Assembly (NCBI GenBank): GCA_937998645.1
Contig: CALLCZ010000052.1
Coordinates: 2,724 to 66,723 of the forward strand
DNA length: 64,000 bases
Direction of reading: 5' to 3'
DNA from: an uncultured Gammaproteobacteria bacterium
GTDB lineage: Bacteria; Pseudomonadota; Gammaproteobacteria; SZUA-229
This document shows positions 10,273-29,973 of the stretch, in pieces (the first letter of the stretch is position 1; every line of letters starts with the position of its first letter). A model generated the notes under the pieces. It was not told where the DNA came from. It was given only the letters and a program-made list of their open reading frames with translations, and did not search any database. Position numbers and translations under genes: made by a program.

Positions 10273-10384
10273 TCGCGATATTAGACTGATTGGTATTGTT
10301 TGGGGAAGTGGCGAGGGATGAGTGGCGAGTGGCAAGGCTGTGAACTTATCTTTTCCTCGCCACTGACTACTTATCCCTCGCCAC

Positions 10385-10420
10385 TCACGGATATAGCAGG
10401 CTAGCCCGCTATATCCGTGA
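10385..10420. terminator. Perfect 13-bp-stem palindrome at the convergent junction htpX / EAL gene (candidate bidirectional terminator)
   Basis: tcacggatatagc-aggctagccc-gctatatccgtga. Overlaps the stop codon of the minus-strand EAL gene. Preceded by nested inverted repeats at 10304-10388. Confidence 0.4.
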
Positions 10421-12536: not shown

Positions 12537-12551
12537 AGTTTTTACTTGTTA

Positions 12552-15546: not shown

Positions 15547-15618
15547 ATGTACTGATTCGGCGTGTGCTCTAAACGGTATTCGGGTAAGATTACGCCCTGA
15601 ATTTAACAGGTTAAAAGC

Positions 15619-17383: not shown

Positions 17384-18517
17384 ATGTCGAAAATGAGCAA
17401 ATTCCCTAGAATTCTTTTCTTTCTATTCGGCTTTATAGCCAGCACTGCACAGGCAGATAACATCGTTACTGTCGGTGTGGCACCGCATGGTGGTTATGTC
17501 ATTCTTGGGGGTACTGTAATACCGCTCAAGGAAGTAACACTGTCTGCACAGATTCCGGGCATCGTTCAAACCCTGGCAGGTGAAGAGGGTGACAGCTTCA
17601 CTGCAGGTGCTGAACTGGTAACCATTAATGATGACGAGCTACAGGCCAAAAAGCGCGCTGCAGAAGCGCAGCTGAGTGCAGCCTACACCGCCATGCAAAA
17701 TGCGCAGGTTCAATACACCCGGGAATTGTGGAACCCGAGTATTTACAACCCACGACCGATGGGCGGCATGGCGATGCCTACCATGTTTGACTCATTCTTT
17801 GACGGCGGTCGAGGAGACTTCATGGGTAGTGGTAGTGACAAGGGTATTGAACGCCATGCGGACCTGGTGACGCAGGGTACACAGGTGCAGACTGCCCAAT
17901 CAAGAATTCAACAGGCTGAATCGGGTCTGCGAGAAATCGAAGCCAAGATTCGTGATGCCAAATCAACGGCACCGTTTGACGGTGTCATTACCGACAAGCT
18001 GGTCGAGGTGGGCGATACGGTACAGCCCGGTCAGCCACTGCTGAGATTCTCCTATTCGAAGTTTCTACGCATCCAGGCTGAAGTTCCGGCCCGACTGGTG
18101 CCAGGATTGCACAAGGACATGGTGGTGCCGGCCAGGCTTGATGTCAATAACACCAAGGTCAATGCTCGCGTAGCGCTGATTGCGCCAGAAGCGGACAGGC
18201 AGCAGCACACTATTACTGTCAAATTTGACCTTCCCGAGGGTGTGCCAGGTGGGCCCGGCATGTATGCAGAAGTCATGATTCCGGACATTAATTCACCGAC
18301 CAAGGCACTGCCGGTGATACCCAAATCGGCAATCATCAAGCGAGGAAGTTTACCGTCAGTCAGAGTGCTTGATGATGAGGGCAAACCCAAAATGCGCCTG
18401 ATACGCACAGGTATCGAGCTGGATGCAAACCACGTTATCGTGCTTTCCGGTTTGAAACCGGGTGAGCGCATACTGACATCCGAGGAAAAACCGCCGGCAA
18501 ACTGGGAGCAGCCGTAA
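17384..18517 (+). CDS. RND efflux periplasmic adaptor (membrane fusion protein, HlyD family)
   Basis: 377 aa. Signal/anchor (MSKMSKFPRILFFLFGFIASTAQA). Coiled-coil hairpin region. Lipoyl and beta-barrel regions. Immediately upstream of the RND permease. Confidence 0.85.
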   Translation: MSKMSKFPRILFFLFGFIASTAQADNIVTVGVAPHGGYVILGGTVIPLKEVTLSAQIPGIVQTLAGEEGDSFTAGAELVTINDDELQAKKRAAEAQLSAAYTAMQNAQVQYTRELWNPSIYNPRPMGGMAMPTMFDSFFDGGRGDFMGSGSDKGIERHADLVTQGTQVQTAQSRIQQAESGLREIEAKIRDAKSTAPFDGVITDKLVEVGDTVQPGQPLLRFSYSKFLRIQAEVPARLVPGLHKDMVVPARLDVNNTKVNARVALIAPEADRQQHTITVKFDLPEGVPGGPGMYAEVMIPDINSPTKALPVIPKSAIIKRGSLPSVRVLDDEGKPKMRLIRTGIELDANHVIVLSGLKPGERILTSEEKPPANWEQP

Positions 18518-18632
18518 ATACTATTTCTGTTGCTGCAGGTTGAAAGTATCTCCAAAAGTACGCCGCATGCAGCATGGACGGTTCGCCGTGTAGCCGGCGG
18601 ATATTAAAAACCAGAATGAGCTAAATGAAGCA

Positions 18633-21600
18633 ATGGCAGACGAACAGGACAAAGACAAAGACACAGGCGAGGCGCAGGCCTCATCCGAGAATACTGATAA
18701 TTCCAGCGAAGTACCCCAGGTGCCTGAGAGCACTGGCCAGGAGCATTATGATCTAGGCATAGCGGGAAATATAGCGAACAAGTTTATCAACACGCCGGTA
18801 ACACCGATGCTGTTGATTGCTGCATTACTGGTTGGTGTCATGGGCCTGATCTTCACGCCGAGGCAGGAAGACCCGAAGATCTCGGTACCGATGATCGATC
18901 TGTATGTATCCTATCCAGGTGCTTCGGTGTACCAGGTGGAGTCGCTGGTGACAGACCCGCTGGAACGCCTGATGGATGAAATACCGGGTGTACGTCATAC
19001 CTATTCTGCAACGATGCGGGGCCAGGCGATTGTCACCGTTCGCTTCTTCGTCGGTGAAGACCTCGGCGAATCCATCGTCAAGGTGCATGACAAGATCCGG
19101 TCCAATATGGACAAGATTCCACCGGATGTGTCCATGCCGCTGGTCAAACCGGTGGCAATCGATGATGTTCCAACCGTCAGCGTAACGCTCTGGTCCAAGG
19201 AGGTTGATGACAGCACGCTGCGTATCCTGGCCAATGACGTGCTACAGGAACTGGGGCAGGTCAAAAACACCGGTAAAGGCTTTGTTGTAGGCGGGCGCGC
19301 TGACCAGATAAGAGTGGAAGTCATGCCCGAGCGACTGGCAGGCTACAACCTCAGTTTGCAGCAGGTTGCCAATACCGTTACAGCTGCCAATGCGGAATCC
19401 AATGTCGGTGCAGTCGAAGCCGGCAGTACTTCGTTCTCAGTTTATTCGGGCACCTTCCTCAAGACGGCGGATTCCATCAAGCGCCTGGTGGTCGGTACAT
19501 TTAATGGCGCACCCATCTATATGCGTGATGTGGCCAATGTGTTTCACGGGCCTGAGGATGCCAAGCAGGTCTCTTATTACTATGCAGGCCCGGCATACGA
19601 AGGTGAACACAGGGCTAACGGAGATGCGGCTGTCACTATCGCCATTGCCAAAAAAGAAGATACCAACGGTGTAACGGTATCAAAAGCAGTTCTGAAAAAA
19701 ATTGATTCGCTGAAAGGCCGGCTTATTCCGGACAATGTTCACGTAGAAGTTACACGCGATTACGGCAAGACGGCCAACGACAAGGTCAATGAGCTGTTGA
19801 TGGCCATGTTCGAGGCGGCCCTGATCGTGTCTGTTCTGTGCCTGATTGGCCTGGGTGCCCGCGCCGCCTTTGTTGTTATCACGGTCATTCCGGTGGTGAT
19901 TCTGCTGACAATATGGTGGGCGATGATGGTGGATTACACCATTGACCGCGTCAGCCTGTTCGCCCTGATTTTCTCCATTGGTATCCTGGTCGATGATGCC
20001 ACCGTGGTGGTGGAAAACATCTTCCGGCACTGGCTGGTCAAGGGACGAACCACCATCACCGACGCGGTCGACGCGGTGCGTGAGGTCGGCAATCCGACCA
20101 TACTGGCGACTTTTACCATTATTGCCGCACTGCTACCGATGGGCTGGGTCAGCGGTCTGATGGGTCCCTATATGCGCCCGATCCCGGTACTGGGTTCATC
20201 GGCCATGTTCTTCTCGCTGGTTGCCGCCTTTATCTTTACGCCCTGGTTCGCAATGAAAGTACGGCCCAAGATGGCGGCGCTGGAAGCGGCAGAAAGGCGC
20301 GAACAACGCACCCATAAAGTCATCGGCAAATTTTACCGCCCGCTAATCATGCCGCTGGTTAACAGCCGCAAGCTCGGCATACTCTTCCTGGTTAGCATTA
20401 TTGGTATAACCGCGGCGACCTGTCTGCTGTTCTATCCGACGCAGTGGGTGCCGGTGAAGATGCTGCCATTCGACAACAAGCCCGAGTTCAGTGTCATTAT
20501 CAACATGCCGGAAGGTACCGCGATGCCGGTCACTGCCAATGTTGCGCACGAACTCGCGGAAGCGGTAAAAGCCATTCCCGAAGTGACGGCCGTGCAATCC
20601 TATGCCGGTACTGCACAGCCTTTCAACTTCAATGGCATGGTGCGTCATTACTACTTGCGCAGCAGGCCATGGGAAGGTGACCTGCTGGTGTTGCTGAAAG
20701 ATAAGAATGAGCGTGAACGGGGCAGCCATGCGATTGCGGTAGAAGCGCGTTCGATTCTCAAGCCGATAGCAGACAGACTGGGCGCAAAAATCGCGGTTGT
20801 AGAAATGCCGCCGGGTCCGCCCGTGCTGCAAACCATGGTTACCGAGATCCATGGGCCTGATGAAGAGACGCGGCGTGAAGTTGCAAGCAAGATGACCGAG
20901 TTCTTTGAACAGGCTGAAGGCGTTGTCGATGTCGATAATTACATGGCCGAACCATCCAATTACTGGCGTTTCGAGATCAATGTCGACAAGGCGGCCCGTC
21001 GAGGTATTTCGGTTGAAAGCATCAACGGTACGCTGGCGATGGCCATGGGTGGCTATCGCCTCGGTGATGTCAAGCTCGCTTCAGTGATAGAACCTACCTT
21101 TATTGTTATCCAGGTACCGCTGGCGACCCGTTCGCAGGTTAGCCAGTTGAGCAACCTGCCGGTCGTGAGTGCTTCCGGCACCGCAGTACCCCTGGGTGAA
21201 CTGGGTGATTTTGTGCTGCAGCAGGAAGAGCCCGTCATCTATCACAAGGACTTGCGTGCCATTGAATACGTAGTTGGAGAAATGGAAGGTCGCCTGGGTG
21301 CGCCGATATACGGCATGTTCAATGTTGAGGCTTTCACCGATGAATACACCACGCCTGACGGTGTAATCATGCAGGGCATGCCGATGAATCTTATCGGACC
21401 ACCGAGTGACGACGAAAAGTCCGGCTTCGAATGGACCGGTGAATGGACTGTGACTTTCGAAACCTTCCGCGACATGGGCATTGCGTTCATGGCTGCGCTG
21501 GTGTTGATCTACGGTCTGATCGTGTATGAGTTCCGTGATTTTGCGATCGCGGGGCTGATTATGTCACCGATTCCCGTCACCATGATCGGTATTGTTCCGG

Positions 21601-22637
21601 GACATTGGATCATGGGTGCAGAGTTCACAGCGACTTCGATGATCGGCATGATCGCACTGGGCGGGATTATCGTGCGGCAATCCATCCTGATTGTGGAATT
21701 CGTCAAGATCGAGGTCGCTAAAGGCCGTCCGGTCAGGGAAGCTGCAGTCGCGGGCGCCGAAATACGTATGCGCCCGATCATGATTACTTCGCTGACACTG
21801 ATGGCTGGTGCATGGGCCATTATCTTTGACCCGATTTTCCAGGGCATGGCAGTGAGCCTGTTGTTTGGTGCCGGCGTTGCCACCCTGATGGCAGTAATCA
21901 TTATCCCTCTTGGCTGTATCAGTTTGCGTAAACGCTTCTACATGGAGACGGCAGCAGATTCTGCCGAGATGGTACTGAGCCCTAAATATGCAGAGATCGA
22001 AGGCGAAGACGCCGAGGTGGCGGCGGCTGCTGAAGAAGCCGTGCAGGAATACAGGACACCGCTTTGGATGCGGCTCTATAGCGGCATCATTGGTCTGTTT
22101 GGCTGGATTTTCCTTATCCTGAACTCGGTTTTCATCTTGTTGAAGATGGCGTTTGGCTTTGTGCTGGGGAAATTTGGCGGCTCTGATGAACCTCCACCAC
22201 CACCGCCGGCCGCATCGCCGCCGTCGAGTCCACCGCCGTCTTCGAGTCCGCCGTCTCCAGGCGGGGATGATTCTGCCGCTGCGGAACAGTCATCATCGGA
22301 GCAGGCTGCACCTGAATCCGAGGCTGAAGACGAAGCGAATATAACGGCGGAGCAGGAAAAGGCAGCCACAACAGACAAGCCCACTGTTAAGAAAAAAGCG
22401 GCCAGTACGGTGAAAAGAGCGCCTGAGAAAAAGGCAGACAAGAAGAAGACAGACAAGAAAAAGGCGGAGTCAGCAAAAGCAGCATCTTCAGCAAAAAAAG
22501 CGGAGTCGGATGATGATTCTGTAGCAGCCACAGATGCTAAGACGGTAAAGAAAACCGCGGCGGCCAAAAAGGCGCCTTCGAAGAAAACCTCACCAAGCGG
22601 CAGGCGCGGTATTAGACTGAAAGTTGATACTGACTAG
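18633..22637 (+). CDS. RND efflux transporter permease (AcrB/CusA superfamily) with an unusual ~230-aa low-complexity C-terminal tail
   Basis: 1334 aa. 12-TM RND core (IAALLVGVMG..., DDATVVVENIFRH, duplicated halves). After the core comes an extra hydrophobic segment (LWMRLYSGIIGLFGWIFLILNSVFILLKMAFGFVLG). This is followed by a Pro/Ser run (PPPPPAASPPSSPPPSSSPPSP), an acidic block and a Lys/Ala-rich histone-H1-like block (KKAASTVKRAPEKKADKKKTDKKKAESAKAASSAKK...). Confidence 0.9.
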   Translation: MADEQDKDKDTGEAQASSENTDNSSEVPQVPESTGQEHYDLGIAGNIANKFINTPVTPMLLIAALLVGVMGLIFTPRQEDPKISVPMIDLYVSYPGASVYQVESLVTDPLERLMDEIPGVRHTYSATMRGQAIVTVRFFVGEDLGESIVKVHDKIRSNMDKIPPDVSMPLVKPVAIDDVPTVSVTLWSKEVDDSTLRILANDVLQELGQVKNTGKGFVVGGRADQIRVEVMPERLAGYNLSLQQVANTVTAANAESNVGAVEAGSTSFSVYSGTFLKTADSIKRLVVGTFNGAPIYMRDVANVFHGPEDAKQVSYYYAGPAYEGEHRANGDAAVTIAIAKKEDTNGVTVSKAVLKKIDSLKGRLIPDNVHVEVTRDYGKTANDKVNELLMAMFEAALIVSVLCLIGLGARAAFVVITVIPVVILLTIWWAMMVDYTIDRVSLFALIFSIGILVDDATVVVENIFRHWLVKGRTTITDAVDAVREVGNPTILATFTIIAALLPMGWVSGLMGPYMRPIPVLGSSAMFFSLVAAFIFTPWFAMKVRPKMAALEAAERREQRTHKVIGKFYRPLIMPLVNSRKLGILFLVSIIGITAATCLLFYPTQWVPVKMLPFDNKPEFSVIINMPEGTAMPVTANVAHELAEAVKAIPEVTAVQSYAGTAQPFNFNGMVRHYYLRSRPWEGDLLVLLKDKNERERGSHAIAVEARSILKPIADRLGAKIAVVEMPPGPPVLQTMVTEIHGPDEETRREVASKMTEFFEQAEGVVDVDNYMAEPSNYWRFEINVDKAARRGISVESINGTLAMAMGGYRLGDVKLASVIEPTFIVIQVPLATRSQVSQLSNLPVVSASGTAVPLGELGDFVLQQEEPVIYHKDLRAIEYVVGEMEGRLGAPIYGMFNVEAFTDEYTTPDGVIMQGMPMNLIGPPSDDEKSGFEWTGEWTVTFETFRDMGIAFMAALVLIYGLIVYEFRDFAIAGLIMSPIPVTMIGIVPGHWIMGAEFTATSMIGMIALGGIIVRQSILIVEFVKIEVAKGRPVREAAVAGAEIRMRPIMITSLTLMAGAWAIIFDPIFQGMAVSLLFGAGVATLMAVIIIPLGCISLRKRFYMETAADSAEMVLSPKYAEIEGEDAEVAAAAEEAVQEYRTPLWMRLYSGIIGLFGWIFLILNSVFILLKMAFGFVLGKFGGSDEPPPPPPAASPPSSPPPSSSPPSPGGDDSAAAEQSSSEQAAPESEAEDEANITAEQEKAATTDKPTVKKKAASTVKRAPEKKADKKKTDKKKAESAKAASSAKKAESDDDSVAATDAKTVKKTAAAKKAPSKKTSPSGRRGIRLKVDTD

Positions 22638-22649
22638 GGGGGATATATT

Positions 22650-23183
22650 ATGCGTTTGCTGAATCATGCTTTTTCTATCATTATGGTATCGTTATTGATT
22701 CAGTCGGGAAATGTATCAGCGGCGCCGGTAATCAGTACACTACCCGATACTTTCCCCGGGTCGGGAGGACTTGCAAGGCCCCCGGCGGGCAGTCAACTGC
22801 CTCCGGCCTATCCTGAGTGGCCAGAACGGCCCGCCCGAAGAGAATTAATACCACCACCACCCGGTGGCCCCTACATGTCATCAGCCTTGTCTGACATCGA
22901 TGCTTTTCCCGCACATACCGGCGGTTTGCGCAATGAACCCAGGGGTCATCGGATGCCATCGCCTTTTTTTGGGGCGGACATGCCATGGCCGGAAACACCT
23001 GAGTATTCGCCTCCTGAAGCCTGGATACCTGAAAGTGGTGAATACCGTTTTGTGCCGGAAGAGGTTGTGCGCCAGCTGGAATCTCCAGCACCGAGCCAGC
23101 GGCAGGAATATCAAAGATATATGCCGCCTCGGGTGTATATGCCGGCACCGCCGCCAAGACCGCCTTATTACGGCTACTACTGA
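22650..23183 (+). CDS. Secreted proline-rich low-complexity protein
   Basis: 177 aa. Strong SD (GGGGGGA) upstream. Signal peptide (MRLLNHAFSIIMVSLLIQSGNVSAAP). Pro/Tyr/Glu-rich mature region ending PAPPPRPPYYGYY. Confidence 0.65.
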   Translation: MRLLNHAFSIIMVSLLIQSGNVSAAPVISTLPDTFPGSGGLARPPAGSQLPPAYPEWPERPARRELIPPPPGGPYMSSALSDIDAFPAHTGGLRNEPRGHRMPSPFFGADMPWPETPEYSPPEAWIPESGEYRFVPEEVVRQLESPAPSQRQEYQRYMPPRVYMPAPPPRPPYYGYY

Positions 23184-23245
23184 TAACGACGGTAAATATT
23201 AAAAATTAAACTAACATTAAGCTGAGGGTAAACAAACATTATTAA

Positions 23246-23773
23246 GTGATTGAAATGAAAATGGTTAGTGTCTGTATTGCATTTGTACTGGTTGTATTCC
23301 TGGATAATGCAATATCAGGTGGTTATTCACGAGGTGATGATCCGGCGCAGTATCAGGGCGCTAGCCAGATGTTGTTAGCTGAGTCGGGAGACAACCCATG
23401 GGCGCGTCCTCAACAACGGCAAGGTGCAGGTGGGCTGCCTTCATATATCACGAATCCGAAATATGCGACCAAAGAAGACGTGGAAACAAAATTGAATGAT
23501 GGAAACAAGCAACGCAGCAGCAGTGGCATGCCAGCGCAGCCGCGACAGCAGGTTCAGCCCGGATACGGGGCGCCACTGGGTTTGCCTGCAGTGCCTCAAA
23601 TCTATGCGCCATATTATCAACCTGGATATCCGGGTGCTGGCATGATGCCGGGTATGGGTATGCCTTACATGGGTAGTCCCGGATTTGGCGGCAATCCCCT
23701 GATAACTCCATACGGAAATATTTATGGCAATGTTGTGCCATATCAAGAATCACGGCCATCCTCGGGTGATTAA
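23246..23773 (+). CDS. Secreted Gly/Pro/Tyr/Met-rich low-complexity protein
   Basis: About 175 aa (GTG or nearby ATG start). Hydrophobic signal segment (MKMVSVCIAFVLVVFL). Mature N-terminus GGYSRGDDP shares the GYSRGD motif with the next gene. C-terminal half PGYGAPLGLP...PGYPGAGMMPGMGMPYMGSPGFGGNPLITPYGNIYGNVVPY. Confidence 0.6.
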   Translation: MIEMKMVSVCIAFVLVVFLDNAISGGYSRGDDPAQYQGASQMLLAESGDNPWARPQQRQGAGGLPSYITNPKYATKEDVETKLNDGNKQRSSSGMPAQPRQQVQPGYGAPLGLPAVPQIYAPYYQPGYPGAGMMPGMGMPYMGSPGFGGNPLITPYGNIYGNVVPYQESRPSSGD

Positions 23774-23896
23774 TTACGAGCATGGTAAATAGAATCTGTT
23801 GAATACACGGCGAATTCGAAAAGTATTTGACGGTATATGTTGGTATTGGATAAATCCCTCAATTCAATGCCCGTAAAAACTCTTAAGAGGGTCACA

Positions 23897-24358
23897 ATGG
23901 GTGATTCAATGAAAAAAACATTGATAATTATGGCTGCTGCGGCAGTCCTGGCAGCATCTTCATCGGCAAATGCCTGGTGGGGTGATGACGGTTACAGTCG
24001 TGGTGATGGTCGTGGCTATGGTCGCGGTTATGGCGACGGCTATGGTTATGGCGACGGTTATGGCGATGGCTATGGTGATGCTGATGGTGATTTCGATGGA
24101 GATTTCTCAATGCACATGAGCGGCAGTGGTCGTGGTTCAGGCCGTGGTCGTGGTCGTGGTGAAAATCGTTACCGTGGTCGTGGTGATTATCGTGGTGATT
24201 ATTACGGTGATTACTATGGCGACTATCGTGATGGTCGTGGCTATTATGGCGGTGGTCCGTACGGCTACAGAGGCTACGGCGCACCTTATGGTGCTCCATA
24301 CGGCGCACCATACGGTGCACCAGCTGCACCTGCAGCTCCTGCCGCACCTGCCAAGTAA
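23897..24358 (+). CDS. Secreted Gly/Tyr/Asp/Arg repeat protein (sulfur-globule-protein-like composition)
   Basis: SD AAGAGGG is 5 nt before the ATG at 23897. Signal peptide [22 protein letters not shown]. Mature sequence [33 protein letters not shown]..., then [33 protein letters not shown]..., then (APYG)x4 and (AAP)x3. The underlying DNA is a near-tandem repeat of ~15-bp units. Confidence 0.65.
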
Positions 24359-24424
24359 AAAGCAGGTTCCCTTTGACTGGCGGCCTGCTAAAGTTACTGG
24401 CTGCCAGTCTCTGGATTAAGAGGG

Positions 24425-25162
24425 ATGAATTACATTATCAAATCGATCCTGCTAGCGCTATTTGTATTGATGTCATTCAATGCGCATGCGGTCTCATTCT
24501 CGGCTGATGCCGTTCAACACCGTGGGACTGAAGTCAGCCATGCGAAAATGTTCTGGAATGACGGCAGCGTTCGATTTGAATACATGGGTCAGGGCATTCC
24601 CATGGTGCAGATTTTCGATAACAACAACAGTAAGGTGATCTGGCTTGATACTGCGAAGAAAGTCTATACAGAGCGTGAACTGACAGATCAGCAGCCTGTG
24701 CCTGTTATGGCCGGCACAGAAAAAAAATACAATCCTTGCGATGACTTCCCGGACGCTGAGTGTACTCGCCTGAAGTCAGCTGAATTAAATGAACGCCAAA
24801 CGGACAAGTGGCTGATTACTTTCAAAGAAAACGGCAGGGACCAGCACGTTTTCCAGTGGATAGACAAGAAACACCAGATGCTGGTTCGCCAGGAAAATCC
24901 GGACGGCTCTGTTCTCGAAGTGAAAATCCTTGATGATCAGGAAATAAATGACAGGCAGGTGCGCAGAGTCGACATGAATGCAATAGACTCTGATGGCAAC
25001 AGTGTTCGTGCCACTCAGTGGTATGACCCTGTACTCGATATCGTAGTTCGTCAACAGGCAGGCTATGGTGTCATAGACGAATTGCGCAACATCAAGCTTG
25101 AAACGGTCAGTGCAGAGAGTTTGCAATACCCGAAGGACACAGGACTGTCGATTCTCAGCTGA
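24425..25162 (+). CDS. Secreted/periplasmic hypothetical protein
   Basis: 245 aa. Signal peptide (MNYIIKSILLALFVLMSFNAHA). Hydrophilic beta-rich sequence with no recognisable catalytic motif. Co-directional with the flanking genes. Confidence 0.6.
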   Translation: MNYIIKSILLALFVLMSFNAHAVSFSADAVQHRGTEVSHAKMFWNDGSVRFEYMGQGIPMVQIFDNNNSKVIWLDTAKKVYTERELTDQQPVPVMAGTEKKYNPCDDFPDAECTRLKSAELNERQTDKWLITFKENGRDQHVFQWIDKKHQMLVRQENPDGSVLEVKILDDQEINDRQVRRVDMNAIDSDGNSVRATQWYDPVLDIVVRQQAGYGVIDELRNIKLETVSAESLQYPKDTGLSILS

Positions 25163-25230
25163 CAGATGTGAACACTGAAACAGGCATTACATTCGGTACA
25201 GCAAATAAGTAAGAGGTTGTTAATAACAAA

Positions 25231-25869
25231 ATGTTGACCGTCATAGGTAATCTGAAAGGTGGAACAGGCAAGAGCACGGTGGCATTCAATCTGGCCGTGT
25301 GGCTGGCGCATGACAATACGGATGTACATTTGTTTGATCTCGACCCCCAGGAGACGTTGATGGATACGGCAGAAATAAGGGAAGAGGATGGCTATGAGCC
25401 TGTAATCGAGATTTCGAATGACGTCGATGAACTCGAAATGCTGGTCAACAGCAAGGGAAGCAAGAATACGACACAGCTTGTTGCGGATGTCAGCGCGACG
25501 AATATGCCGCATCTTGAAAAGGCTATTTCGCTGGCAAGGCGAGTCTTGATACCTGTACAGCCCAGTCAGGCGGATATCTGGTCGACACAGCGCTTTCTGA
25601 AGATTGTGCTGTCATGCATGGATAAAGAGAACAGGCCCGAGATACTCGCTTTCATCAATCGTGCAGACACGCACCCTGGTATTCGCGAAACCGGTGAGGC
25701 TGAAGAAGCGCTGCAGATGCTGCCAAATATTGAAGCGCTGGATGCCAGGTTGTATACACGCACGGCTTTTCGCCGTTCCTTTAGTGAGGGGCTGGCCGTC
25801 TTTGAGCAGGATCCAATGGGCAAGGCAGCTCGTGAAATGAAGAAACTGGCTAAACTACTATATAAATAA
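25231..25869 (+). CDS. Small ParA/MinD-family P-loop ATPase (orphan ParA-like)
   Basis: 212 aa. Deviant Walker A (GNLKGGTGKSTVAFNLA), Walker A' (LFDLDPQ), Walker B (VLIPVQPS). There is no parB or centromere-like partner; the downstream gene is a TM-TPR protein. Confidence 0.8.
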   Translation: MLTVIGNLKGGTGKSTVAFNLAVWLAHDNTDVHLFDLDPQETLMDTAEIREEDGYEPVIEISNDVDELEMLVNSKGSKNTTQLVADVSATNMPHLEKAISLARRVLIPVQPSQADIWSTQRFLKIVLSCMDKENRPEILAFINRADTHPGIRETGEAEEALQMLPNIEALDARLYTRTAFRRSFSEGLAVFEQDPMGKAAREMKKLAKLLYK

Positions 25870-25930
25870 CAGGCTATTCTGAAATGATCAGATTTGCCTG
25901 CTAAATGAAATACTGATTCTGGAGATGATT

Positions 25931-26788
25931 ATGAAGTTAATCAGGTGGTTGTTCAGCAACATTATACTGATAGCGTTTGTGCTGGCTTTAACCTATGCCT
26001 ACGTGTACTGGGACAACCTTACCGGTGAAGATACGCCGGCAGGCAAGGCGATCGCCTATTTATCGGTTGAGTACGATGAAGTGCGCGAGTTTCTGGACTC
26101 ATATGATTTTAACGATGATCAGGTGGTTGATGCTCGCCCGGAACCCGTTGCTGAAGCAACAGAAACCGCATCTGTTCCCCAGATGATGCCGCCACCCAGG
26201 CCCCAGGTACGCCCACCGGCGCAGCAACAGCCGGTGCCGCCGCGGGAGATGGCACAACAACCACCGGTGAGCCAGCCGTCAGTCAGCCCCCAGGTTCCAC
26301 CCGTGGTAATGATGCAGCAGCCACCCGCAGGCCAGCAGGCCTCCAGGCCTCAGGCTCCGCCCCAGGCCATGATGCAGAAACCGCCTGCAAGGCCGCCAGT
26401 ACCGCAGCCCGTGACGCCAGCGCGCGAGCCGGTGCCGGCCGGCCCGCCAGCAGCTGCAGTCGCAGACAAACCGGCTTCGAGCACGCGTGAACTCTGGATC
26501 AGTGCACGCGAGGAATACCATCGCGGCAATATTGAGGGTTCCATCAGCAACTACCAGCAAGTGATTGCGAGTTCCACTGATAACTATGATGCTTATGGCG
26601 AACTGGGCAATGTTTACCTGAGCAGAGGCAAATACAGGGAGGCTGCCAGCGCTTATTTTGATGCAGCCTCAATTCTGGTGAAACAGGGACAGGCTGGCCG
26701 TGCCAGAAGCTTGTTGCCGATGCTGGAGCGGCTGGACAGGAAGAAGGCCGAAGAATTGCATCAACTCATCAACACGGCAGGCAACTAA
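25931..26788 (+). CDS. Membrane-anchored protein with Pro/Gln-rich disordered linker and C-terminal TPR-like domain
   Basis: SD GGAGA 6 nt before ATG at 25931. N-terminal TM (LIRWLFSNIILIAFVLALTYAYVYW). About 110 aa of P/Q/V-rich low complexity (PPPRPQVRPPAQQQPVPP...). C-terminal helical repeats (YDAYGELGNVYLSRGKYREAASAYFDAASILVKQGQ). Confidence 0.6.
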   Translation: MKLIRWLFSNIILIAFVLALTYAYVYWDNLTGEDTPAGKAIAYLSVEYDEVREFLDSYDFNDDQVVDARPEPVAEATETASVPQMMPPPRPQVRPPAQQQPVPPREMAQQPPVSQPSVSPQVPPVVMMQQPPAGQQASRPQAPPQAMMQKPPARPPVPQPVTPAREPVPAGPPAAAVADKPASSTRELWISAREEYHRGNIEGSISNYQQVIASSTDNYDAYGELGNVYLSRGKYREAASAYFDAASILVKQGQAGRARSLLPMLERLDRKKAEELHQLINTAGN

Positions 26789-26805
26789 CAAAAGAGACGG
26801 CATCC

Positions 26806-27396
26806 ATGTTCTATTTTTTACGTAATATTCTCGCCATCCTAGGCCTGGTTGTGATTATCGCCGCTGGCTACGCAATGGTTAAATTTCAGCCATCGCTCGC
26901 TGTCATCAGTGAGTTTGAAGACAATGCGGTCGATGTTTTCACTGATATGGGTGTCAAACTGCTTGAAACCGGTAACATGGCTGAGGCGAGTATCTGGAAA
27001 ATACCCGTGGATGAGGGCATGACTGCTGACGAGGTTGAAGAAACAATGAAGTTTGTTGCCAATGAGCACAACTTCAAGAATGTTGGCGAAATGCCGTTAT
27101 ACAAGGAAGTGGAAGCCATGAGCGGCATGCCATATCGGTATGTTAAAATATTCATGTTTTGTAATGCACTGACTGCATCACGCATGCTGGACTACAATGA
27201 TGCATTCTCCAGCTATTTGCCTTGCCGCATTACTTTGATCGAAGACAAGGAAGGCAAGTTGTGGCTGTACACGCTGAACATGGATGGCATGATCTATGGC
27301 GGCAGGCCGCTACCGGCTGAGCTCAAGGAAGAGGCTGAAAATGTGAAAGAAATCATACTCGACATTATGAATAGAGGCGCAACCGGCGAGTTCTAA
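26806..27396 (+). CDS. Membrane-anchored DUF302-domain protein
   Basis: 196 aa. N-terminal TM (ILAILGLVVIIAAGYAMV). DUF302-like core (FMFCNALTASRML...YLPCRITLIEDKEGKLWLYTLNMD). The stop lies 1 nt before the next start. Confidence 0.65.
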   Translation: MFYFLRNILAILGLVVIIAAGYAMVKFQPSLAVISEFEDNAVDVFTDMGVKLLETGNMAEASIWKIPVDEGMTADEVEETMKFVANEHNFKNVGEMPLYKEVEAMSGMPYRYVKIFMFCNALTASRMLDYNDAFSSYLPCRITLIEDKEGKLWLYTLNMDGMIYGGRPLPAELKEEAENVKEIILDIMNRGATGEF

Positions 27397-27397
27397 T

Positions 27398-28441
27398 ATG
27401 GCTGACGAAAAGAAGCCACCAGCTTCTGGCAAAAGTACAACAGACAAACCGGCAGAAAAGCCGGCCGCTTCTGCTGCGCCCGAGAAAAAGGCGGCGCCGG
27501 CCAAGAAAGCTGAGCCCAAAAAAGCTGAGCCCAAAAAAGCTGAACCCAAAAAAGCTGAACCCAGGAAAACTGAGCCCGCGGCTACCGATGCGCTGTCTGA
27601 TACAGAAAAAAGGGCAGCAACCACCATCCTCAAGAAGAAAATGAGTGTCGAGGAGGAAAAGCGGGCGCTGGACGCCATCATCACCGGGGCTACGACGGCT
27701 GCGGACAAGAAAAAAGCGATCGATGAGCTGAAAAAACTCCACGTTGCTGATGACATCATAAAACAGAGAACACACGAAACACCCGAGGGTGTAAACGAGA
27801 TCAAGCAAAAGGCATCCAAAGCCAGGCATGCCGCTTCAGAGAAAATTCTCAGCCAGGGCTATGTTCCTGATGCCGATGTGGCCTTATCACGCCTTGCCGA
27901 TACTTTTGATAAAAGTGCACGTCGTTGGGAAATGGTGGTCTACCCGACCATGTTCGCGTTTATCCTGCTCGCAGGTTATGGCTTTTACCTGATTTACCAT
28001 TTGACGCATGATATTGCGGTGCTGTCACACAGTGTGACCCGTATGGCCACGATCGTATCCGATGCAACACCCAGGGTAACGCAGGATATGCGGGATATGT
28101 CGCAGGACATGCGCGTCATGTCTGGCGAGATACGCACCATGTCCTACCAGATGGAAACCCTGAAGCCGATGAGCAACAACATCGCCAACATGACCTACAC
28201 GATGACGAATCTGAACCGCTCCGTGTACGGTTTGCAGCGTGATGTGGGGGGCATGAATCGTACCATTTCTGGCGGTCCGTTTGGTTTTATGAAAGATGCA
28301 ATGCCATTCTCATCTGATTCATATACAAATCCGCTACCACCGGTACCAATGGGCGCGGGCCAGCACCAGCCTGTCTATATTCAGCCCATGCCTTCACCGC
28401 CGGTCATGATGGCACCGCAGACTGCGCCTAATGGAAACTGA
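27398..28441 (+). CDS. Membrane protein with N-terminal Lys/Ala/Pro/Glu tandem repeats (KKAEP x4) and C-terminal Met-rich region
   Basis: 347 aa. N-terminus ...PAKKAEPKKAEPKKAEPKKAEPRKTEP, encoded by 15-bp tandem DNA repeats. Single TM (MVVYPTMFAFILLAGYGFYLIYHL). Then Met-rich DMRDMSQDMRVMSGEIRTMSYQMETLKPMSNNIANMTYTMTNL and a Pro/Met-rich end. Confidence 0.6.
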   Translation: MADEKKPPASGKSTTDKPAEKPAASAAPEKKAAPAKKAEPKKAEPKKAEPKKAEPRKTEPAATDALSDTEKRAATTILKKKMSVEEEKRALDAIITGATTAADKKKAIDELKKLHVADDIIKQRTHETPEGVNEIKQKASKARHAASEKILSQGYVPDADVALSRLADTFDKSARRWEMVVYPTMFAFILLAGYGFYLIYHLTHDIAVLSHSVTRMATIVSDATPRVTQDMRDMSQDMRVMSGEIRTMSYQMETLKPMSNNIANMTYTMTNLNRSVYGLQRDVGGMNRTISGGPFGFMKDAMPFSSDSYTNPLPPVPMGAGQHQPVYIQPMPSPPVMMAPQTAPNGN

Positions 28442-28464
28442 TATCACCTTATCTGGAGACTTTT

Positions 28465-29973
28465 ATGCTGTCCAGGCCCGACAAATCGATTCGTGAACGA
28501 TTGGCCAAGCTGGAATCTCATCTTGAAAATGAGAATCCGCTGCTGCTTGATACGGTCATCCGTTTTAAAAAGCTGGATCGTGTTGCCTATCGCATGGGTC
28601 TGCTTAACACCAGCGACTCCTATGCAACACGCATTCCCTGGTGGCCGTTAATCTCGGTACTGGGTACATTCTCAGCAGGAAAGTCTTCATTCATCAATCA
28701 TTTTCTGGGTAAGAAACTGCAGCTGACAGGAAACCAGGCGGTTGATGACAAGTTTTCAGTGATTTGCTATTCGGCGCAGAAAGAGAGCCGGGTGCTGCCA
28801 GGCATTGCACTGGATTCGGATCCGCGCTTCCCGTTCTACCAGATGAGTGACGAAATCGACAAGGTTTCAGAAGGTGAGGGCCGGCGCATCGATGCTTATC
28901 TGCAGATGAAAACATCGGATTCCGAAAAAGTCAGCGGCAAGATTATCATTGATTCACCGGGATTCGACGCAGACGATCAGCGCAACGAAACACTGCGTTT
29001 AACCAATCACATCATCGATATTTCCGACCTGGTGCTGGTGTTCTTCGATGCGCGCCATCCCGAGCCCGGCGCCATGCATGATACGCTTGACCACCTTGTT
29101 GGCGACACCATACGGCGTAATGATTCAGAAAAATTTCTTTATATCCTGAACCAGATGGATACCGCGGCAGGAGAAGATAATCCCGAGGCCGTGGTTGCTG
29201 CATGGCAGAGAGCATTGGCACAAAAAGGCCTCACTGCAGGTCGCTTCTATGCCATCTACAACGAAGAAGTGTCTGTGCCAATTGTTGATGATACGGTCCG
29301 CAAACGATTTCAATCCAAGCGTGATGCTGATCTCACCGAAATATATGAACGTATTCACCAGGTTGAAGTGGAGCGTTCCTACAGGATTATTGGCGCGCTG
29401 GATCATATTGCCACTGATATCGAAAACGTTGTCGTACCTAAGTTGACAGAAATGATGCATCGCTGGATGAAGGCGGTGTTGATTACTGATGCCGTGATAT
29501 TTGGTGGTATTTTGGTACTGATTGCGGTAATCAGTAACTGGATGAACCTGTGGGGTTTGTTCAGTCTGGATTTCACCAATCAGGCCGTGATGTCAACGCT
29601 GAAAGTCACAGCCATATCCGTTGCGGTTATTGTCATCCATTCCAGTGTGCGAAGTTTTGTTGCCAGTCGTCTAGCGAGAAAGCTGGAAACTGAATCTCTC
29701 GCAGGCAACGTCAAGAATGCTTTCCTGAGAAATACACGCCCGATTCGCAGTCTGTTCCATCCGGCCCCCGCGGGATGGTCATCACGCTCCCGACGCATAC
29801 TGGCCGGCGTTGTCGGTGATGCCAGCCGGTTTGTGCAGACGATGAATGACAGGTTCACGAACCCGTCAGGAATTATTGAGGAGTCGCCACAGGCCGAGAT
29901 GCTTAAAGTTGTTGATGCAGAAGACGAGCCGGAAGTTGAACAGGCTAAATCGTCTGCGGATTCGGCGAACTGA
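28465..29973 (+). CDS. Membrane-anchored dynamin-like GTPase
   Basis: 502 aa. Dynamin-type P-loop GTFSAGKSSFINHFLG (compare dynamin GGQSAGKSS). G3 DSPG. G4 NQMD. C-terminal hydrophobic hairpin (AVIFGGILVLIAVISNW ... VTAISVAVIVIHSSV). Confidence 0.75.
   Translation: MLSRPDKSIRERLAKLESHLENENPLLLDTVIRFKKLDRVAYRMGLLNTSDSYATRIPWWPLISVLGTFSAGKSSFINHFLGKKLQLTGNQAVDDKFSVICYSAQKESRVLPGIALDSDPRFPFYQMSDEIDKVSEGEGRRIDAYLQMKTSDSEKVSGKIIIDSPGFDADDQRNETLRLTNHIIDISDLVLVFFDARHPEPGAMHDTLDHLVGDTIRRNDSEKFLYILNQMDTAAGEDNPEAVVAAWQRALAQKGLTAGRFYAIYNEEVSVPIVDDTVRKRFQSKRDADLTEIYERIHQVEVERSYRIIGALDHIATDIENVVVPKLTEMMHRWMKAVLITDAVIFGGILVLIAVISNWMNLWGLFSLDFTNQAVMSTLKVTAISVAVIVIHSSVRSFVASRLARKLETESLAGNVKNAFLRNTRPIRSLFHPAPAGWSSRSRRILAGVVGDASRFVQTMNDRFTNPSGIIEESPQAEMLKVVDAEDEPEVEQAKSSADSAN

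What the first reader, a model, noticed from the sequence alone, without database searches (positions are those of the whole stretch)
21940..22637. RND efflux pump with an appended hydrophobic segment plus a ~150-aa Pro-rich / acidic / Lys-Ala-rich (histone-H1-like) tail
RND permeases normally end shortly after TM12, at about 1030-1050 aa. This one continues for ~230 aa. The extension contains:
- an additional hydrophobic stretch of ~32 residues;
- PPPPPAASPPSSPPPSSSPPSP;
- an acidic block (SEAEDEANITAEQEK);
- a KKAAS...KKADKKKTDKKKAESAK...AKKAPSKK region resembling H1/AlgP-type polyanion-binding tails.
There is also a ~40-aa acidic N-terminal extension. A neighbouring gene (27398-28441) carries a similar KKAEP repeat. 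Such tails bind DNA or polyphosphate, or mediate condensate formation. Fused to a transporter, this would tether the pump to the nucleoid, to polyP granules or to partner proteins. I am not aware of RND pumps described with such tails.
Basis: seen in the sequence. Interest (0 to 1): 0.55.

Follow-up and report, generated by a model that had tools for sequence, protein, structure and literature searches.

The report
RND pump with anchored flexible tail
A membrane efflux pump of uncultured sulfur-oxidising bacteria really does carry an extra membrane helix, a long floppy tail and a short conserved end-peptide. This add-on is shared by hundreds of relatives, including Beggiatoa, and probably tethers the pump to a partner; the lysine-rich "histone-like" make-up is only a local variant of it.

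Summary
ORF 18633-22637 (+) encodes a 1334-aa RND permease that runs 232 aa past TM12.

It is not a frameshift or a gene fusion. About 240 homologue clusters are 1215-1509 aa long and keep the same architecture. They come from MAGs and from Beggiatoa alba, Thioploca, Thiomargarita, Thioflexithrix and Endothiovibrio. "Stand-alone tail" hits proved to be contig-edge or scaffold-gap fragments.

The architecture, in order:
- a conserved acidic linker;
- a 38-residue hydrophobic helix;
- a poly-Pro stretch;
- a disordered spacer of variable length and composition;

The Lys/Ala-rich H1-like composition is not conserved. Sister clades have acidic or (GGTPPPPRE)n spacers. In this lineage it co-varies with a long Lys-rich cytoplasmic N-terminus in the neighbouring bitopic protein (27398-28441) and with a longer acidic N-terminus on the pump.

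The pump lies in a conserved cluster: MFP, RND, secreted sulfur-globule-protein-like proteins, DUF4412, ParA-like ATPase, TPR, DUF302, bitopic protein, dynamin-like GTPase.

Best reading: a membrane-anchored flexible tether presenting a short binding peptide, probably cytoplasmic (about 60%). In this lineage it is additionally polyanion-binding. A periplasmic TonB/TolA-like arm remains a serious rival. It is a new variant of a known kind.

The parts
18633..18755 (+). Acidic N-terminal extension of the RND permease (residues 1-41, net charge -10). It is cytoplasmic by standard RND topology.
   Evidence: The extension is 30-41 aa (net -5 to -10) in the Lys-rich-tail clade and 16-19 aa (net -1 to -3) in the Pro/Gly/acidic-tail clade.
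18756..21938 (+). RND permease core: 12 TM helices and two large periplasmic loops (residues 42-1102).
   Evidence: Pfam PF00873 matches residues 48-1063, E 2.7e-137. AF2 model has pLDDT 70. Foldseek finds OqxB/CmeB/AcrB/MtrD with TM-scores 0.69-0.78. The TM4 'VDDATVVVEN' pair and the TM10 Arg are invariant in 62 sequences.
21939..22061 (+). Conserved acidic juxtamembrane linker (residues 1103-1143), with the motif FYxE...LSxxYxEIEG...EYKTP.
   Evidence: Alignments. AF2 predicts a small beta-hairpin at 1104-1106/1113-1115 plus a short helix, pLDDT ~75. Net charge is -1 to -10 in all homologues.
22062..22175 (+). Extra hydrophobic helix (residues 1144-1181), the membrane anchor of the tail.
   Evidence: AF2 predicts one continuous helix: pLDDT 86-95 for the tail alone and 52-73 in the full model. 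My dG re-implementation gives -2.8 kcal/mol for 1144-1174, better than most of the 12 canonical TMs. A 3-4-3-4 stripe of small, polar or basic residues is conserved in 113 homologues.
22176..22259 (+). GGSDE followed by the Pro/Ser-rich run PPPPPPAASPPSSPPPSSSPPSP (residues 1182-1209).
   Evidence: A PPPP stretch directly after the helix is present in all clades. There is an 18-bp repeat, 2.1 copies, at 22216-22253.
22260..22376 (+). Acidic Ser/Ala/Glu-rich part of the disordered spacer (residues 1210-1248).
   Evidence: AF2 pLDDT is below 50.
22377..22601 (+). Lys/Ala-rich (H1/AlgP-like) part of the disordered spacer (residues 1249-1323).
   Evidence: There is a 15-bp repeat, 2.7 copies, at 22426-22465. 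The composition is lineage-specific.
22602..22637 (+). Conserved C-terminal short linear motif RRGIRLKVDTD (residues 1324-1334) plus the stop codon.
   Evidence: R234, R235, G236, I237 and K240 are invariant in alignment A2. The motif is present in 97 of ~115 complete homologues. It is found 4 aa before a stop in every cluster-bearing locus. Variants are near-universal on the Beggiatoa side.
17384..18517 (+). Periplasmic adaptor (MFP) of the pump. It has a signal peptide and a Met/Gly/Phe-rich insert where the hairpin tip would be.
   Evidence: TIGR01730 RND_mfp at 163 bits; HlyD_3 and HlyD_D23. It lies upstream of the long RND in the cluster-bearing loci and in the Beggiatoa alba, Thioploca ingrica and Endothiovibrio loci.
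22650..24358 (+). Three small secreted low-complexity proteins: 22650-23183 with a PPPPGPY motif, 23246-23773 rich in Gly/Pro/Tyr/Met, and 23837-24358 resembling sulfur globule proteins.
   Evidence: PF17228 SGP at 30.0 bits (cut-off 26.7) in the window. Orthologues score 30.1, 25.7 and 38.2 bits in L001, L002 and L004.
24425..25162 (+). Secreted DUF4412-like protein.
   Evidence: The L004 orthologue hits PF14371 at 5.5e-8. Synteny is shown.
25231..25869 (+). ParA/MipZ/VirC1-like deviant Walker-A ATPase.
   Evidence: CbiA, AAA_31, VirC1 and MipZ hits. NF041546 ParA_partition at 134 bits, below its 180-bit cut-off.
25925..26788 (+). N-terminal TM anchor, then a Pro/Gln-rich spacer, then a C-terminal TPR domain.
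   Evidence: TPR_16, TPR_19 and TPR_11 hits. Sequence.
26806..27396 (+). DUF302 protein with an N-terminal hydrophobic anchor or signal sequence.
   Evidence: PF03625 at 9.7e-12.
27398..28441 (+). Bitopic protein: a ~172-aa Lys-rich cytoplasmic N-terminus containing (KKAEP)x5, a conserved SARRWE-TM segment, and a Met-rich C-terminal part.
   Evidence: 27501-27577, period 15, 5.1 copies. The N-terminus is 91-172 aa with 12-20% K in the Lys-rich-tail clade and 33-46 aa with 2-8% K in the sister clade.
28465..29973 (+). Bacterial dynamin-like GTPase with C-terminal hydrophobic segments. It is the last gene of the cluster.
   Evidence: PF00350 Dynamin_N at 8.2e-15. Synteny. A terminator-like site lies at 30039.

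Best explanation
The extra 232 residues are a conserved functional module of a lineage-specific RND pump.

Shown:
- The module consists of a juxtamembrane linker, a strongly hydrophobic 38-residue helix that anchors the extension in or on the inner membrane next to the pump, and a poly-Pro start.
- This is followed by an intrinsically disordered spacer whose length and composition drift freely.
- It ends in a short conserved basic, amphipathic peptide, RRGIRLKxD(L).
- The architecture is conserved in about 240 homologue clusters, all from sulfur-oxidising, mostly sulfur-storing Gammaproteobacteria.

Inferred:
- The module works as a flexible tether on the 'anchor - entropic linker - docking peptide' principle, like the C-terminal linker and peptide of FtsZ. 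The end peptide docks onto a partner and thereby couples or localises the MFP-RND pump.
- The tail is on the cytoplasmic side (about 60%). The helix would then form a tight hairpin or a monotopic anchor.
- In the window's lineage the spacer has additionally become Lys/Ala/Pro-rich. Together with the Lys-rich cytoplasmic N-terminus of the neighbouring bitopic protein, it would bind a polyanion, most simply the nucleoid, as PhaM, PhaF and AlgP do for storage granules.
- The apparatus encoded by the cluster would thus be tied to the nucleoid. That apparatus comprises the pump, secreted sulfur-globule-protein-like proteins, a ParA-like ATPase and a dynamin-like GTPase.

The substrate of the pump and the partner of the peptide are unknown.
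For: Real and conserved:
- 120 of 120 best homologues are long forms or truncated fragments.
- 118 of 120 Beggiatoa-side homologues have tails longer than 120 aa.
- There are no stand-alone tail genes.

Architecture:
- The alignments show conserved linker motifs (I1122, E1123, T1142, P1143 and the LWM that follows are invariant or nearly so) and the invariant residues R R G I.. K at the end. The spacer between them cannot be aligned.
- AF2 gives one confident helix at 1144-1181 and a disordered remainder.
- The helix is as hydrophobic as a true TM segment.

Motif and cluster:
- In the 57 genome loci, every locus with the ParA/TPR/DUF302/dynamin cluster has the motif 4 aa before a stop. In six MAGs it lies in a shifted frame.
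- Loci without the cluster lack the strict motif.

Cytoplasmic side:
- Basic flanks of +2 to +5 follow the helix in sister clades.
- A turn-prone or polar residue (R/Q/K/P/N) sits at the centre of a 36-50-aa hydrophobic module.
- The spacer carries +20 to +45 net charge in many relatives.
- The Lys-rich tail co-varies with two regions that are certainly cytoplasmic: the pump's acidic N-terminus and the bitopic neighbour's Lys-rich N-terminus (rho -0.40, n=112).

Functional precedent: histone-like tails tether PHB and polyP granules to the nucleoid (PMC13052382, PMC9239181).
Against: - Topology is unproven. AF2 predicts one continuous helix, not a hairpin.
- The polar stripe runs in phase through the centre of the helix.
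- In the window's own clade the 15 residues after the helix are acidic with no K or R. This fits a periplasmic exit.
- The co-variation reflects few independent evolutionary events. L036 and L059 have a Lys-rich tail but a short, non-basic neighbour N-terminus.
- The motif also occurs where no ParA/dynamin cluster is adjacent: Beggiatoa alba and Thioploca, and a relaxed form in L062 and L053. The partner therefore need not be encoded in the cluster.
- AF2 found no structure or intramolecular docking for the motif.
- No binding experiment exists. The sulfur-globule link rests on Pfam hits near threshold and on taxonomy.
Confidence: 0.5

Rival explanations
1. Periplasmic arm. The extra helix is a true 13th transmembrane span (N-in, C-out), perhaps packing obliquely on the pump like AcrZ. 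The poly-Pro stalk and spacer then form a TonB/TolA-like periplasm-spanning tether. Its end peptide would dock by beta-augmentation or TPR binding onto a periplasmic or outer-membrane partner. Candidates are the TPR protein, the DUF4412 protein, the sulfur-globule envelope or peptidoglycan.
For: - AF2 predicts a single uninterrupted 38-residue helix, pLDDT up to 95.
- The polar stripe stays in phase along the whole helix.
- The predicted dG is typical of a TM segment.
- In the window's clade the flank after the helix is acidic (GGSDE, SDDDDY).
- A poly-Pro stretch directly after the anchor occurs in all clades. (GGTPPPPRE)n and Lys/Ala/Glu-rich spacers resemble the TonB and TolA rods.
- JGI annotated one homologue 'AcrB / ...TonB'.
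- Several cluster products are predicted to be periplasmic.
- The motif alternates hydrophobic and basic residues like an edge strand.
Against: - It would export +20 to +45 net positive charge against the positive-inside rule.
- Flanks after the helix are strongly basic in sister clades.
- There is no TonB_C or TolA_C-like globular domain.
- The anchor is duplicated or lengthened in relatives (P0070, L025, Beggiatoaceae). That would flip a single-span topology.
- The tail co-varies with cytoplasmic charged regions.
Confidence: 0.3
2. The tail exists in order to bind polyanions (DNA or polyP) or to drive condensates through its histone-H1-like Lys/Ala composition.
For: - Lys, Ala and Pro make up about half of the spacer in this lineage.
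- Relatives carry weak HC2 hits.
- The neighbour has a (KKAEP)5 repeat.
- PhaM, PhaF and AlgP are precedents (PMC13052382).
Against: - The composition is not conserved. The spacer has 0-8% K and net charge -2 to -20 in the Pro/Gly clade.
- On the Beggiatoa side the median is 8.6% K and net charge -1.
- The anchor and the end motif are conserved throughout.
- The window protein itself gives no HC2 hit at E<=0.01.
Confidence: 0.12
3. Functionless read-through or low-complexity drift appended to an otherwise ordinary efflux pump.
For: The spacer is unalignable, repetitive and variable in length: total tail 98-340 aa and up to 388 aa.
Against: The linker, the helix pattern, the poly-Pro start and the terminal motif are conserved from 94% down to ~60% core identity and across several families of Gammaproteobacteria. 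This indicates purifying selection.
Confidence: 0.05
4. Assembly or sequencing artefact that fuses a separate small gene to the pump.
For: Pro-rich homopolymer tracts do cause frameshifts in some long-read MAGs (L037, L048, L050, L055, L057, L060).
Against: - Those errors break the ORF rather than create it.
- The fused form occurs in hundreds of independent assemblies, including the finished genomes of Beggiatoa alba B18LD and Thioploca ingrica.
- Apparent stand-alone tails are fragments.
Confidence: 0.01

Closest known systems
HAE1-type RND permeases (AcrB, MexB, OqxB, TriC, MexK)
   Same: - The fold is the same: Foldseek TM-scores are 0.69-0.78.
- Pfam ACR_tran matches.
- The TM4 Asp-Asp pair is present.
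- A periplasmic adaptor gene is adjacent.
   Different: - Identity is only 19-22%.
- The protein scores far below every NCBIfam subfamily cut-off (419.9 against 1250).
- No outer-membrane factor is encoded in the cluster.
- It carries a 41-aa acidic N-terminal extension and a 232-aa C-terminal module. Solved RND chains end at 1022-1069 aa.
MmpL3-type RND transporters with a disordered cytoplasmic C-terminal domain (mycobacteria; from my own knowledge)
   Same: Both are RND transporters with a long, poorly ordered C-terminal extension thought to serve localisation or interaction rather than transport.
   Different: - MmpL3 has no additional hydrophobic helix, and its extension follows TM12 directly.
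- There is no sequence similarity.
- The window protein has no MMPL Pfam hit.
PhaM / PhaF / AlgP histone-H1-like tails (PMC13052382; PMC9239181)
   Same: Both have Lys/Ala/Pro-rich repetitive C-terminal tails. In PhaM, PhaF and AlgP these tails tether storage granules (PHB, polyP) to the nucleoid. The window's tail and the neighbour's (KKAEP)5 have the same composition and lie beside storage-globule-protein-like genes.
   Different: - PhaM, PhaF and AlgP are soluble proteins. Here the tail is fused to a polytopic transporter through a membrane helix.
- The composition is not conserved among orthologues.
- An additional conserved end peptide exists.
- Neither the side of the membrane nor binding has been tested.
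TonB / TolA
   Same: Both have an inner-membrane anchor followed by a Pro-rich or Lys/Ala/Glu-rich extended spacer. Both are associated with a proton-motive-force-driven membrane machine.
   Different: - There is no TonB_C or TolA domain III, only an ~11-residue motif.
- The anchor is fused to an RND pump rather than partnered with ExbBD or TolQR.
- The net charge is much more positive.
- The topology is unproven.
FtsZ C-terminal linker plus conserved C-terminal peptide (architectural analogy; from my own knowledge)
   Same: Both have a variable-length, variable-composition disordered linker ending in a short conserved docking peptide, followed by a few variable residues.
   Different: The protein family is unrelated, the linker here is membrane-anchored, and the partner is unknown.
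AcrZ / YajC single-helix accessory subunits of RND-type machines (from my own knowledge)
   Same: Both provide one long extra helix that could pack on the transmembrane domain of the pump.
   Different: Here the helix is covalently fused to the C-terminus, would have the opposite orientation to AcrZ, and carries a long tail.

Membership tests
RND permease superfamily (Pfam PF00873, AcrB/AcrD/AcrF) | Significant match to the family profile over the whole core. | tested here: met
   459.5 bits against a cut-off of 28, residues 48-1063.
RND permease superfamily (Pfam PF00873, AcrB/AcrD/AcrF) | 12-TM fold with two large periplasmic loops. | tested here: met
   AF2 model. Foldseek TM-scores of 0.69-0.78 to OqxB, CmeB and AcrB. 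Hydropathy and dG scan.
RND permease superfamily (Pfam PF00873, AcrB/AcrD/AcrF) | Proton-relay residues: an acidic pair in TM4 and a basic residue in TM10. | tested here: met
   D454/D455 (VDDATVVVEN) and R1015 (IVRQSILIVEF) are invariant in 62 sequences. Equivalence to AcrB D407/D408/K940 is from my own knowledge.
Curated multidrug/HME RND subfamilies (NCBIfam NF033617, NF000282, TIGR00915, TIGR00914) | Score above the curated subfamily cut-off. | tested here: not met
   The best score is 419.9 against 1250. All 15 hits are far below their cut-offs.
Tripartite RND efflux system | Adjacent periplasmic adaptor (MFP). | tested here: met
   17384-18517 scores 163 bits on TIGR01730 against a cut-off of 94.9.
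Tripartite RND efflux system | Outer-membrane factor partner. | tested here: inconclusive
   There is none among the cluster genes 17384-29973. An OEP gene lies 3 kb upstream in L004 only. The rest of the genome was not searched.
Histone H1-like / AlgP / PhaF-PhaM type polyanion-binding tails | Lys/Ala/Pro-rich repetitive low-complexity sequence. | tested here: met
   About 16% K, 22% A and 15% P after the helix. Short DNA repeats.
Histone H1-like / AlgP / PhaF-PhaM type polyanion-binding tails | Profile match (Pfam HC2, PF07382). | tested here: inconclusive
   The window protein has no hit at E<=0.01. Several homologues carry weak precomputed hits.
Histone H1-like / AlgP / PhaF-PhaM type polyanion-binding tails | The basic composition is conserved among orthologues. 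| tested here: not met
   Sister-clade spacers have 0-8% K and net charge -2 to -20. On the Beggiatoa side the median net charge is -1.
Histone H1-like / AlgP / PhaF-PhaM type polyanion-binding tails | Cytoplasmic location and DNA or polyP binding. | not testable with these tools
   The topology evidence conflicts.
TonB / TolA periplasm-spanning proteins | C-terminal globular domain (TonB_C or TolA domain III). | tested here: not met
   No Pfam or NCBIfam hit in residues 1182-1334 other than a weak, below-cut-off GltJ match at 23.6 bits against a cut-off of 450. AF2 shows the region as disordered.
TonB / TolA periplasm-spanning proteins | N-in single-span anchor followed by an extended Pro-rich or Lys/Ala/Glu-rich rod in the periplasm. 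| tested here: inconclusive
   A single helix and a poly-Pro stretch are present. The side of the membrane is unresolved.
ParA-partner activating peptides (ParB, McdB, MinE type) | A short basic peptide on a disordered region that co-occurs with a cognate ParA-like ATPase. | tested here: inconclusive
   The strict motif co-occurs with the ParA-containing cluster in all sampled near relatives. The tail plus motif is also found without an adjacent ParA gene in Beggiatoa alba and Thioploca. The motif is C-terminal and membrane-tethered, unlike known partners.
Sulfur globule proteins (Pfam PF17228), applied to neighbour 23837-24358 | Profile match above the gathering score, with a signal peptide and Gly/Tyr-rich repeats. 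| tested here: met
   30.0 bits against 26.7. Orthologues score 30.1, 25.7 and 38.2 bits. The match is in low-complexity sequence, so it is modest evidence.

The most novel reading that the evidence does not exclude
The long-tailed MFP-RND pump is the transmembrane hub of an undescribed system that builds or positions periplasmic sulfur globules, or a related periplasmic protein matrix. The pump-adaptor pair would face the globule, which is made of the co-encoded Sgp-like proteins. The anchored tail and its RRGIRLK peptide would connect it across the membrane to the cytoplasmic ParA-like ATPase, the dynamin-like GTPase and the nucleoid. This would be the first positioning or segregation machinery for an extracytoplasmic storage organelle, and a structural rather than purely transport role for an RND protein.
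Probability: 0.2. Interest if true: 0.85.

Novelty: new variant of a known kind. Interest (0 to 1): 0.62.

Why it matters
RND pumps are among the best-studied bacterial membrane machines, yet none has been described with a fused extra helix, a disordered tether and a terminal docking peptide. This variant is not a curiosity of one MAG. It is the rule in a whole clade of pumps found in the classical sulfur-storing bacteria: Beggiatoa, Thioploca, Thiomargarita, Thioflexithrix, Endothiovibrio, clam symbionts, and many Chromatiales and Thiotrichales MAGs.

In many of these genomes the pump sits in a fixed cluster with sulfur-globule-protein-like genes, a ParA-like ATPase and a dynamin-like GTPase. 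How sulfur globules are nucleated, enclosed and distributed is an open question; a recent review of organelle positioning (PMC13052382) does not mention them at all. This gene set offers a concrete candidate that can be tested genetically in cultured strains.

There is also a caution for annotation. The eye-catching histone-like composition is the least conserved part of the tail.

Tried and rejected
- **Frameshift or fusion artefact: rejected.** The long form is universal. Frameshifts seen in six MAGs disrupt the ORF rather than create it.
- **Independent tail gene in homologues: rejected.** I searched a tail profile against 1.84 billion representatives. The short hits start inside TM12 or at conserved internal Met residues. 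The two I inspected are a scaffold-gap artefact (L064, N-run 4874-4973) and a contig-edge fragment (L065).
- **Intramolecular docking of the end motif onto the linker beta-hairpin: no support.** AF2 of the tail alone shows the motif unstructured, pLDDT ~58.
- **Positive-inside analysis of the helix flanks: inconclusive.** The flanks are acidic in the window's clade and basic in sister clades.
- **Amphipathicity: not decisive.** The moment exceeds shuffles (z ~2.6 in the family), but mean hydrophobicity is TM-like.
- **Resemblance of RRGIRLK to the Tat motif (S/T-RRxFLK) or to an AT-hook (RGRP): rejected.** I considered this from memory. The position is wrong (C-terminal, no h-region) and the core is wrong (no GRP).
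- **Strict exclusivity of motif and cluster: withdrawn.** Beggiatoa and Thioploca loci carry the tail and motif without the adjacent cluster. Relaxed motifs occur in a cluster-less sister clade.
- **Literature searches: nothing found.** I searched for RND pumps with C-terminal extensions or Lys/Pro-rich tails, and for sulfur-globule gene clusters containing RND, ParA or dynamin.
- **Conserved 133-aa gene upstream of the MFP: no significant Pfam match.** This gene occurs in other clades. My guess that it is an SCP2-like lipid carrier is unsupported.


Full report
**1.

The + strand ORF 18633-22637 encodes 1334 aa. Pfam ACR_tran matches residues 48-1063 (E 2.7e-137). The last canonical transmembrane segment ends near residue 1100.
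- an acidic linker (1103-1143);
- a hydrophobic stretch (1144-1181, 38 residues rather than ~32);
- PPPPPPAASPPSSPPPSSSPPSP (1187-1209);
- an acidic Ser/Ala/Glu block (1210-1248);
- a Lys/Ala-rich block (1249-1323);
- the terminus RRGIRLKVDTD.

The 41-residue acidic N-terminal extension is real (net -10). So is the neighbour's KKAEP repeat (27501-27577, period 15, 5.1 copies). Solved RND chains are 1022-1069 residues long and align no further than query residue ~1126, so the extension is unusual for the family.

**2. It is not an artefact**

The 120 best homologues (63-94% identity) are almost all 1200-1430 aa. Apart from a few truncated entries, each has a tail of 98-340 aa with a hydrophobic peak 35-45 residues after TM12.

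I searched a profile of the tail against 1.84 billion representative proteins. It returned 139 hits, 43 of them at E<=1e-10. The many short hits begin inside TM12 or at internal conserved methionines. The two I looked up are a scaffold-gap artefact and a contig-edge fragment.

In six long-read MAGs the Pro-rich tract is frameshifted, but the conserved terminus is still present in the shifted frame.

**3. What is and is not conserved**

Alignment of tails from divergent relatives shows five elements:
- a conserved linker, FYxE...LSxxYxEIEG...EYKTP. AF2 folds it into a small beta-hairpin plus a short helix (pLDDT ~75);
- the hydrophobic module;
- a PPPP stretch right after the module;
- a spacer that cannot be aligned. 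It ranges from Lys/Ala/Pro-rich (13-29% K, net +20 to +45) through acidic to 6-13 copies of GGTPPPPRE (net -2 to -20);
- an almost invariant terminal motif (K/R)RRGIRLKxD(L).

A second homologue search started from a more distant tail-bearing hit, which turned out to be Beggiatoa alba B18LD. It found the same design in Thioflexithrix, Thioploca, Thiomargarita, Ca. Parabeggiatoa, Ca. Halobeggiatoa, Ca. Marithrix, Ca. Albibeggiatoa, Endothiovibrio and a Solemya symbiont. Of its 120 hits, 118 have long tails. Their spacers have a median of 8.6% K and a median net charge of -1. The motif or close variants (RRGIQLKTDL, TRGIRLDD and others) are near-universal.

The histone-like composition is therefore a lineage-specific state of a freely drifting spacer. 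The selected elements are the anchor and the end peptide. The closest tail-less relative I found is the 1101-aa Sedimenticola protein (~62% identity).

**4. The helix and the topology problem**

AF2 predicts one continuous helix for residues 1144-1181. The pLDDT is 86-95 for the tail alone and 52-73 in the 1175-residue model. My re-implementation of the Hessa/von Heijne dG scale gives -2.8 kcal/mol, better than most of the 12 core TM segments. I wrote that scale from memory, so the value is approximate.

Across 113 homologues a 3-4-3-4 stripe occupies module positions 4, 7/8, 11, 14, 21, 25, 28, 32 and 36/37. It is Gly/Ser in the first half and Arg/Gln/Asn/Lys in the second.

Evidence for a single span, and hence a periplasmic tail:
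- the uninterrupted helix;
- the in-phase stripe;
- the acidic flank after the helix in the window's own clade.

Evidence for a hairpin or monotopic anchor, and hence a cytoplasmic tail:
- a turn-prone or charged residue always sits at the centre of a 36-50-residue module;
- flanks of +2 to +5 follow the module in sister clades;
- the anchor is duplicated or lengthened in relatives, which would flip a single-span topology;
- the large positive charge of many tails.

A further argument comes from co-variation. Where the tail is Lys-rich, the pump's N-terminus, which is certainly cytoplasmic, is long and acidic. In most such lineages the neighbouring bitopic protein also has a 91-172-aa N-terminus with 12-20% Lys ahead of its single TM. 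In the Pro/Gly clade that N-terminus is 33-46 aa with 2-8% Lys. The correlation is rho = -0.40 with n = 112, and the points are not phylogenetically independent.

I put the cytoplasmic side at about 60%. Only an experiment can settle it.

**5. Genomic context**

The pump is the second gene of a co-directional, tightly spaced set: 17384-29973, gaps of 1-115 nt, terminator-like site at 30039. The genes, in order, are:
- MFP;
- RND;
- three secreted low-complexity proteins, one of which hits the sulfur globule protein family;
- a DUF4412-like protein;
- a ParA/MipZ/VirC1-like ATPase;
- a TM-anchored TPR protein;
- a DUF302 protein;
- the Lys-rich bitopic protein;
- a dynamin-like GTPase.

The set is syntenic in relatives with different flanks and in the cultured Endothiovibrio diazotrophicus. 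In the 57 genome loci the strict motif and this cluster always occur together.

In Beggiatoa alba and Thioploca ingrica, however, the tail-bearing MFP-RND pair stands without the rest. A cluster-less sister clade keeps a relaxed motif. The peptide's partner therefore need not be a cluster product.

All carriers I could name are sulfur-oxidising, mostly sulfur-storing Gammaproteobacteria. Because they are also related to one another, this is suggestive rather than proof of a sulfur-globule role.

**6. Mechanism**

Shown: a conserved anchor-spacer-peptide module on an otherwise canonical, presumably proton-driven RND pump with its adaptor. The fold match is, and the invariant TM4 Asp-Asp.

Inferred:
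- The module is a flexible tether whose end peptide docks on a partner and couples or localises the pump. This is the design of the FtsZ C-terminal linker and peptide.
- In this lineage the spacer, together with the neighbour's (KKAEP)5 region, has acquired the Lys/Ala/Pro composition that in PhaM, PhaF and AlgP ties storage granules to the nucleoid (PMC13052382, PMC9239181).
- The main rival is a TonB/TolA-like periplasmic arm.
- The substrate is unknown. The score far below all curated multidrug and metal subfamily cut-offs and the odd Met/Gly-rich insert in the adaptor argue against assuming drug efflux.

**7. Comparison with what is known, and novelty**

The protein is a member of the RND superfamily but of none of the curated subfamilies. 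It is not a member of the TonB/TolA families, because it has no C-terminal domain. Its tail resembles H1/AlgP-type tails in composition only, and that composition fails the conservation test.

I found no description of RND pumps with such a module, nor of this gene cluster. I classify it as a new variant of a known kind. There is a roughly 20% chance that it marks a genuinely new system for building or positioning periplasmic sulfur globules.

Noticed in passing
window 17384-29973; L001-L004, L006, L064, L068: A conserved, co-directional cluster of 10-11 genes: MFP, long RND, 1-4 secreted low-complexity proteins, DUF4412, ParA-like ATPase, TM-TPR, DUF302, bitopic protein and dynamin-like GTPase. 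It recurs with different flanking genes in many sulfur-oxidiser MAGs and in the cultured Endothiovibrio diazotrophicus. I found no description of it.
   Followed up: partly
window 22650-24358: Three secreted low-complexity proteins. The first carries a PPPPGPY motif conserved in L001, L002, L004 and L006. The second is Gly/Pro/Tyr/Met-rich. The third (GDGYG, GRGRG and APAAPA repeats) hits Pfam sulfur globule protein just above threshold. Its ORF probably starts at the internal Met at 23909, ahead of the signal peptide.
   Followed up: partly
window 17384-18517 (about residues 116-157): The periplasmic adaptor carries a Met/Gly/Phe/Asp-rich insert (NPSIYNPRPMGGMAMPTMFDSFFDGGRGDFMGSGSDKG) where the alpha-hairpin tip would normally contact an outer-membrane channel. 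No outer-membrane factor gene is in the cluster.
   Followed up: no
window 27398-28441: The bitopic neighbour has a cytoplasmic (KKAEP)5 tandem repeat (27501-27577), a conserved SARRWE motif before its TM, and a Met-rich repetitive C-terminal part (DMRDMSQDMRVMSGEIRTMSYQMETLKPMSNNIANMTYTMTNL; a 21-bp repeat at 28080-28122). The Lys-rich N-terminus is absent from orthologues in the sister clade.
   Followed up: partly
L004 8083-8478; L066 8214-8615; L067 8250-8651; L068 8295-8696: A highly conserved 131-133-aa cytoplasmic protein (60-70% identical between Beggiatoa alba and distant MAGs) sits directly upstream of the MFP in the Pro/Gly clade, in Beggiatoaceae and in Endothiovibrio. It is absent from the window and its near relatives. 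It has no significant Pfam match.
   Followed up: partly
L025 10016-15294; L062 ~8850-13250; L056 8814-13225: A sister subclade of the pump lacks both MFP and cluster and is instead translationally coupled to, or adjacent to, a 284-aa pentapeptide-repeat protein. Some members have a duplicated anchor helix (P0070, L025). Sedimenticola has no tail at all.
   Followed up: partly
L037, L048, L050, L055, L057, L060 (3' part of the RND gene): Public MAG assemblies carry frameshifts in the Pro-rich, C-rich tract of this gene. Automated annotation therefore truncates or splits the protein there.
   Followed up: yes
window 29997-30860 (-) and the equivalent position in L001, L002, L006: A phosphatidylserine decarboxylase gene converges on the end of the cluster in the near relatives. 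A PCu(A)C/LpqE-like gene lies next to it in L001, L002 and L006; I did not check whether the window has it. They are not linked to the cluster in more distant genomes, so this is probably coincidental.
   Followed up: no
window 14542-17165: The upstream genes are the ordinary EF-P modification set. 14542-15546 (-) is a radical-SAM, EpmB-like gene. 16182-17165 (+) is class II tRNA-synthetase-like (EpmA), inferred from its sequence and from the tRNA-synt_2 hit on its L001 orthologue. An efp gene lies between the two in L001; I did not confirm it in the window. This sets the left boundary of the cluster in this lineage.
   Followed up: no
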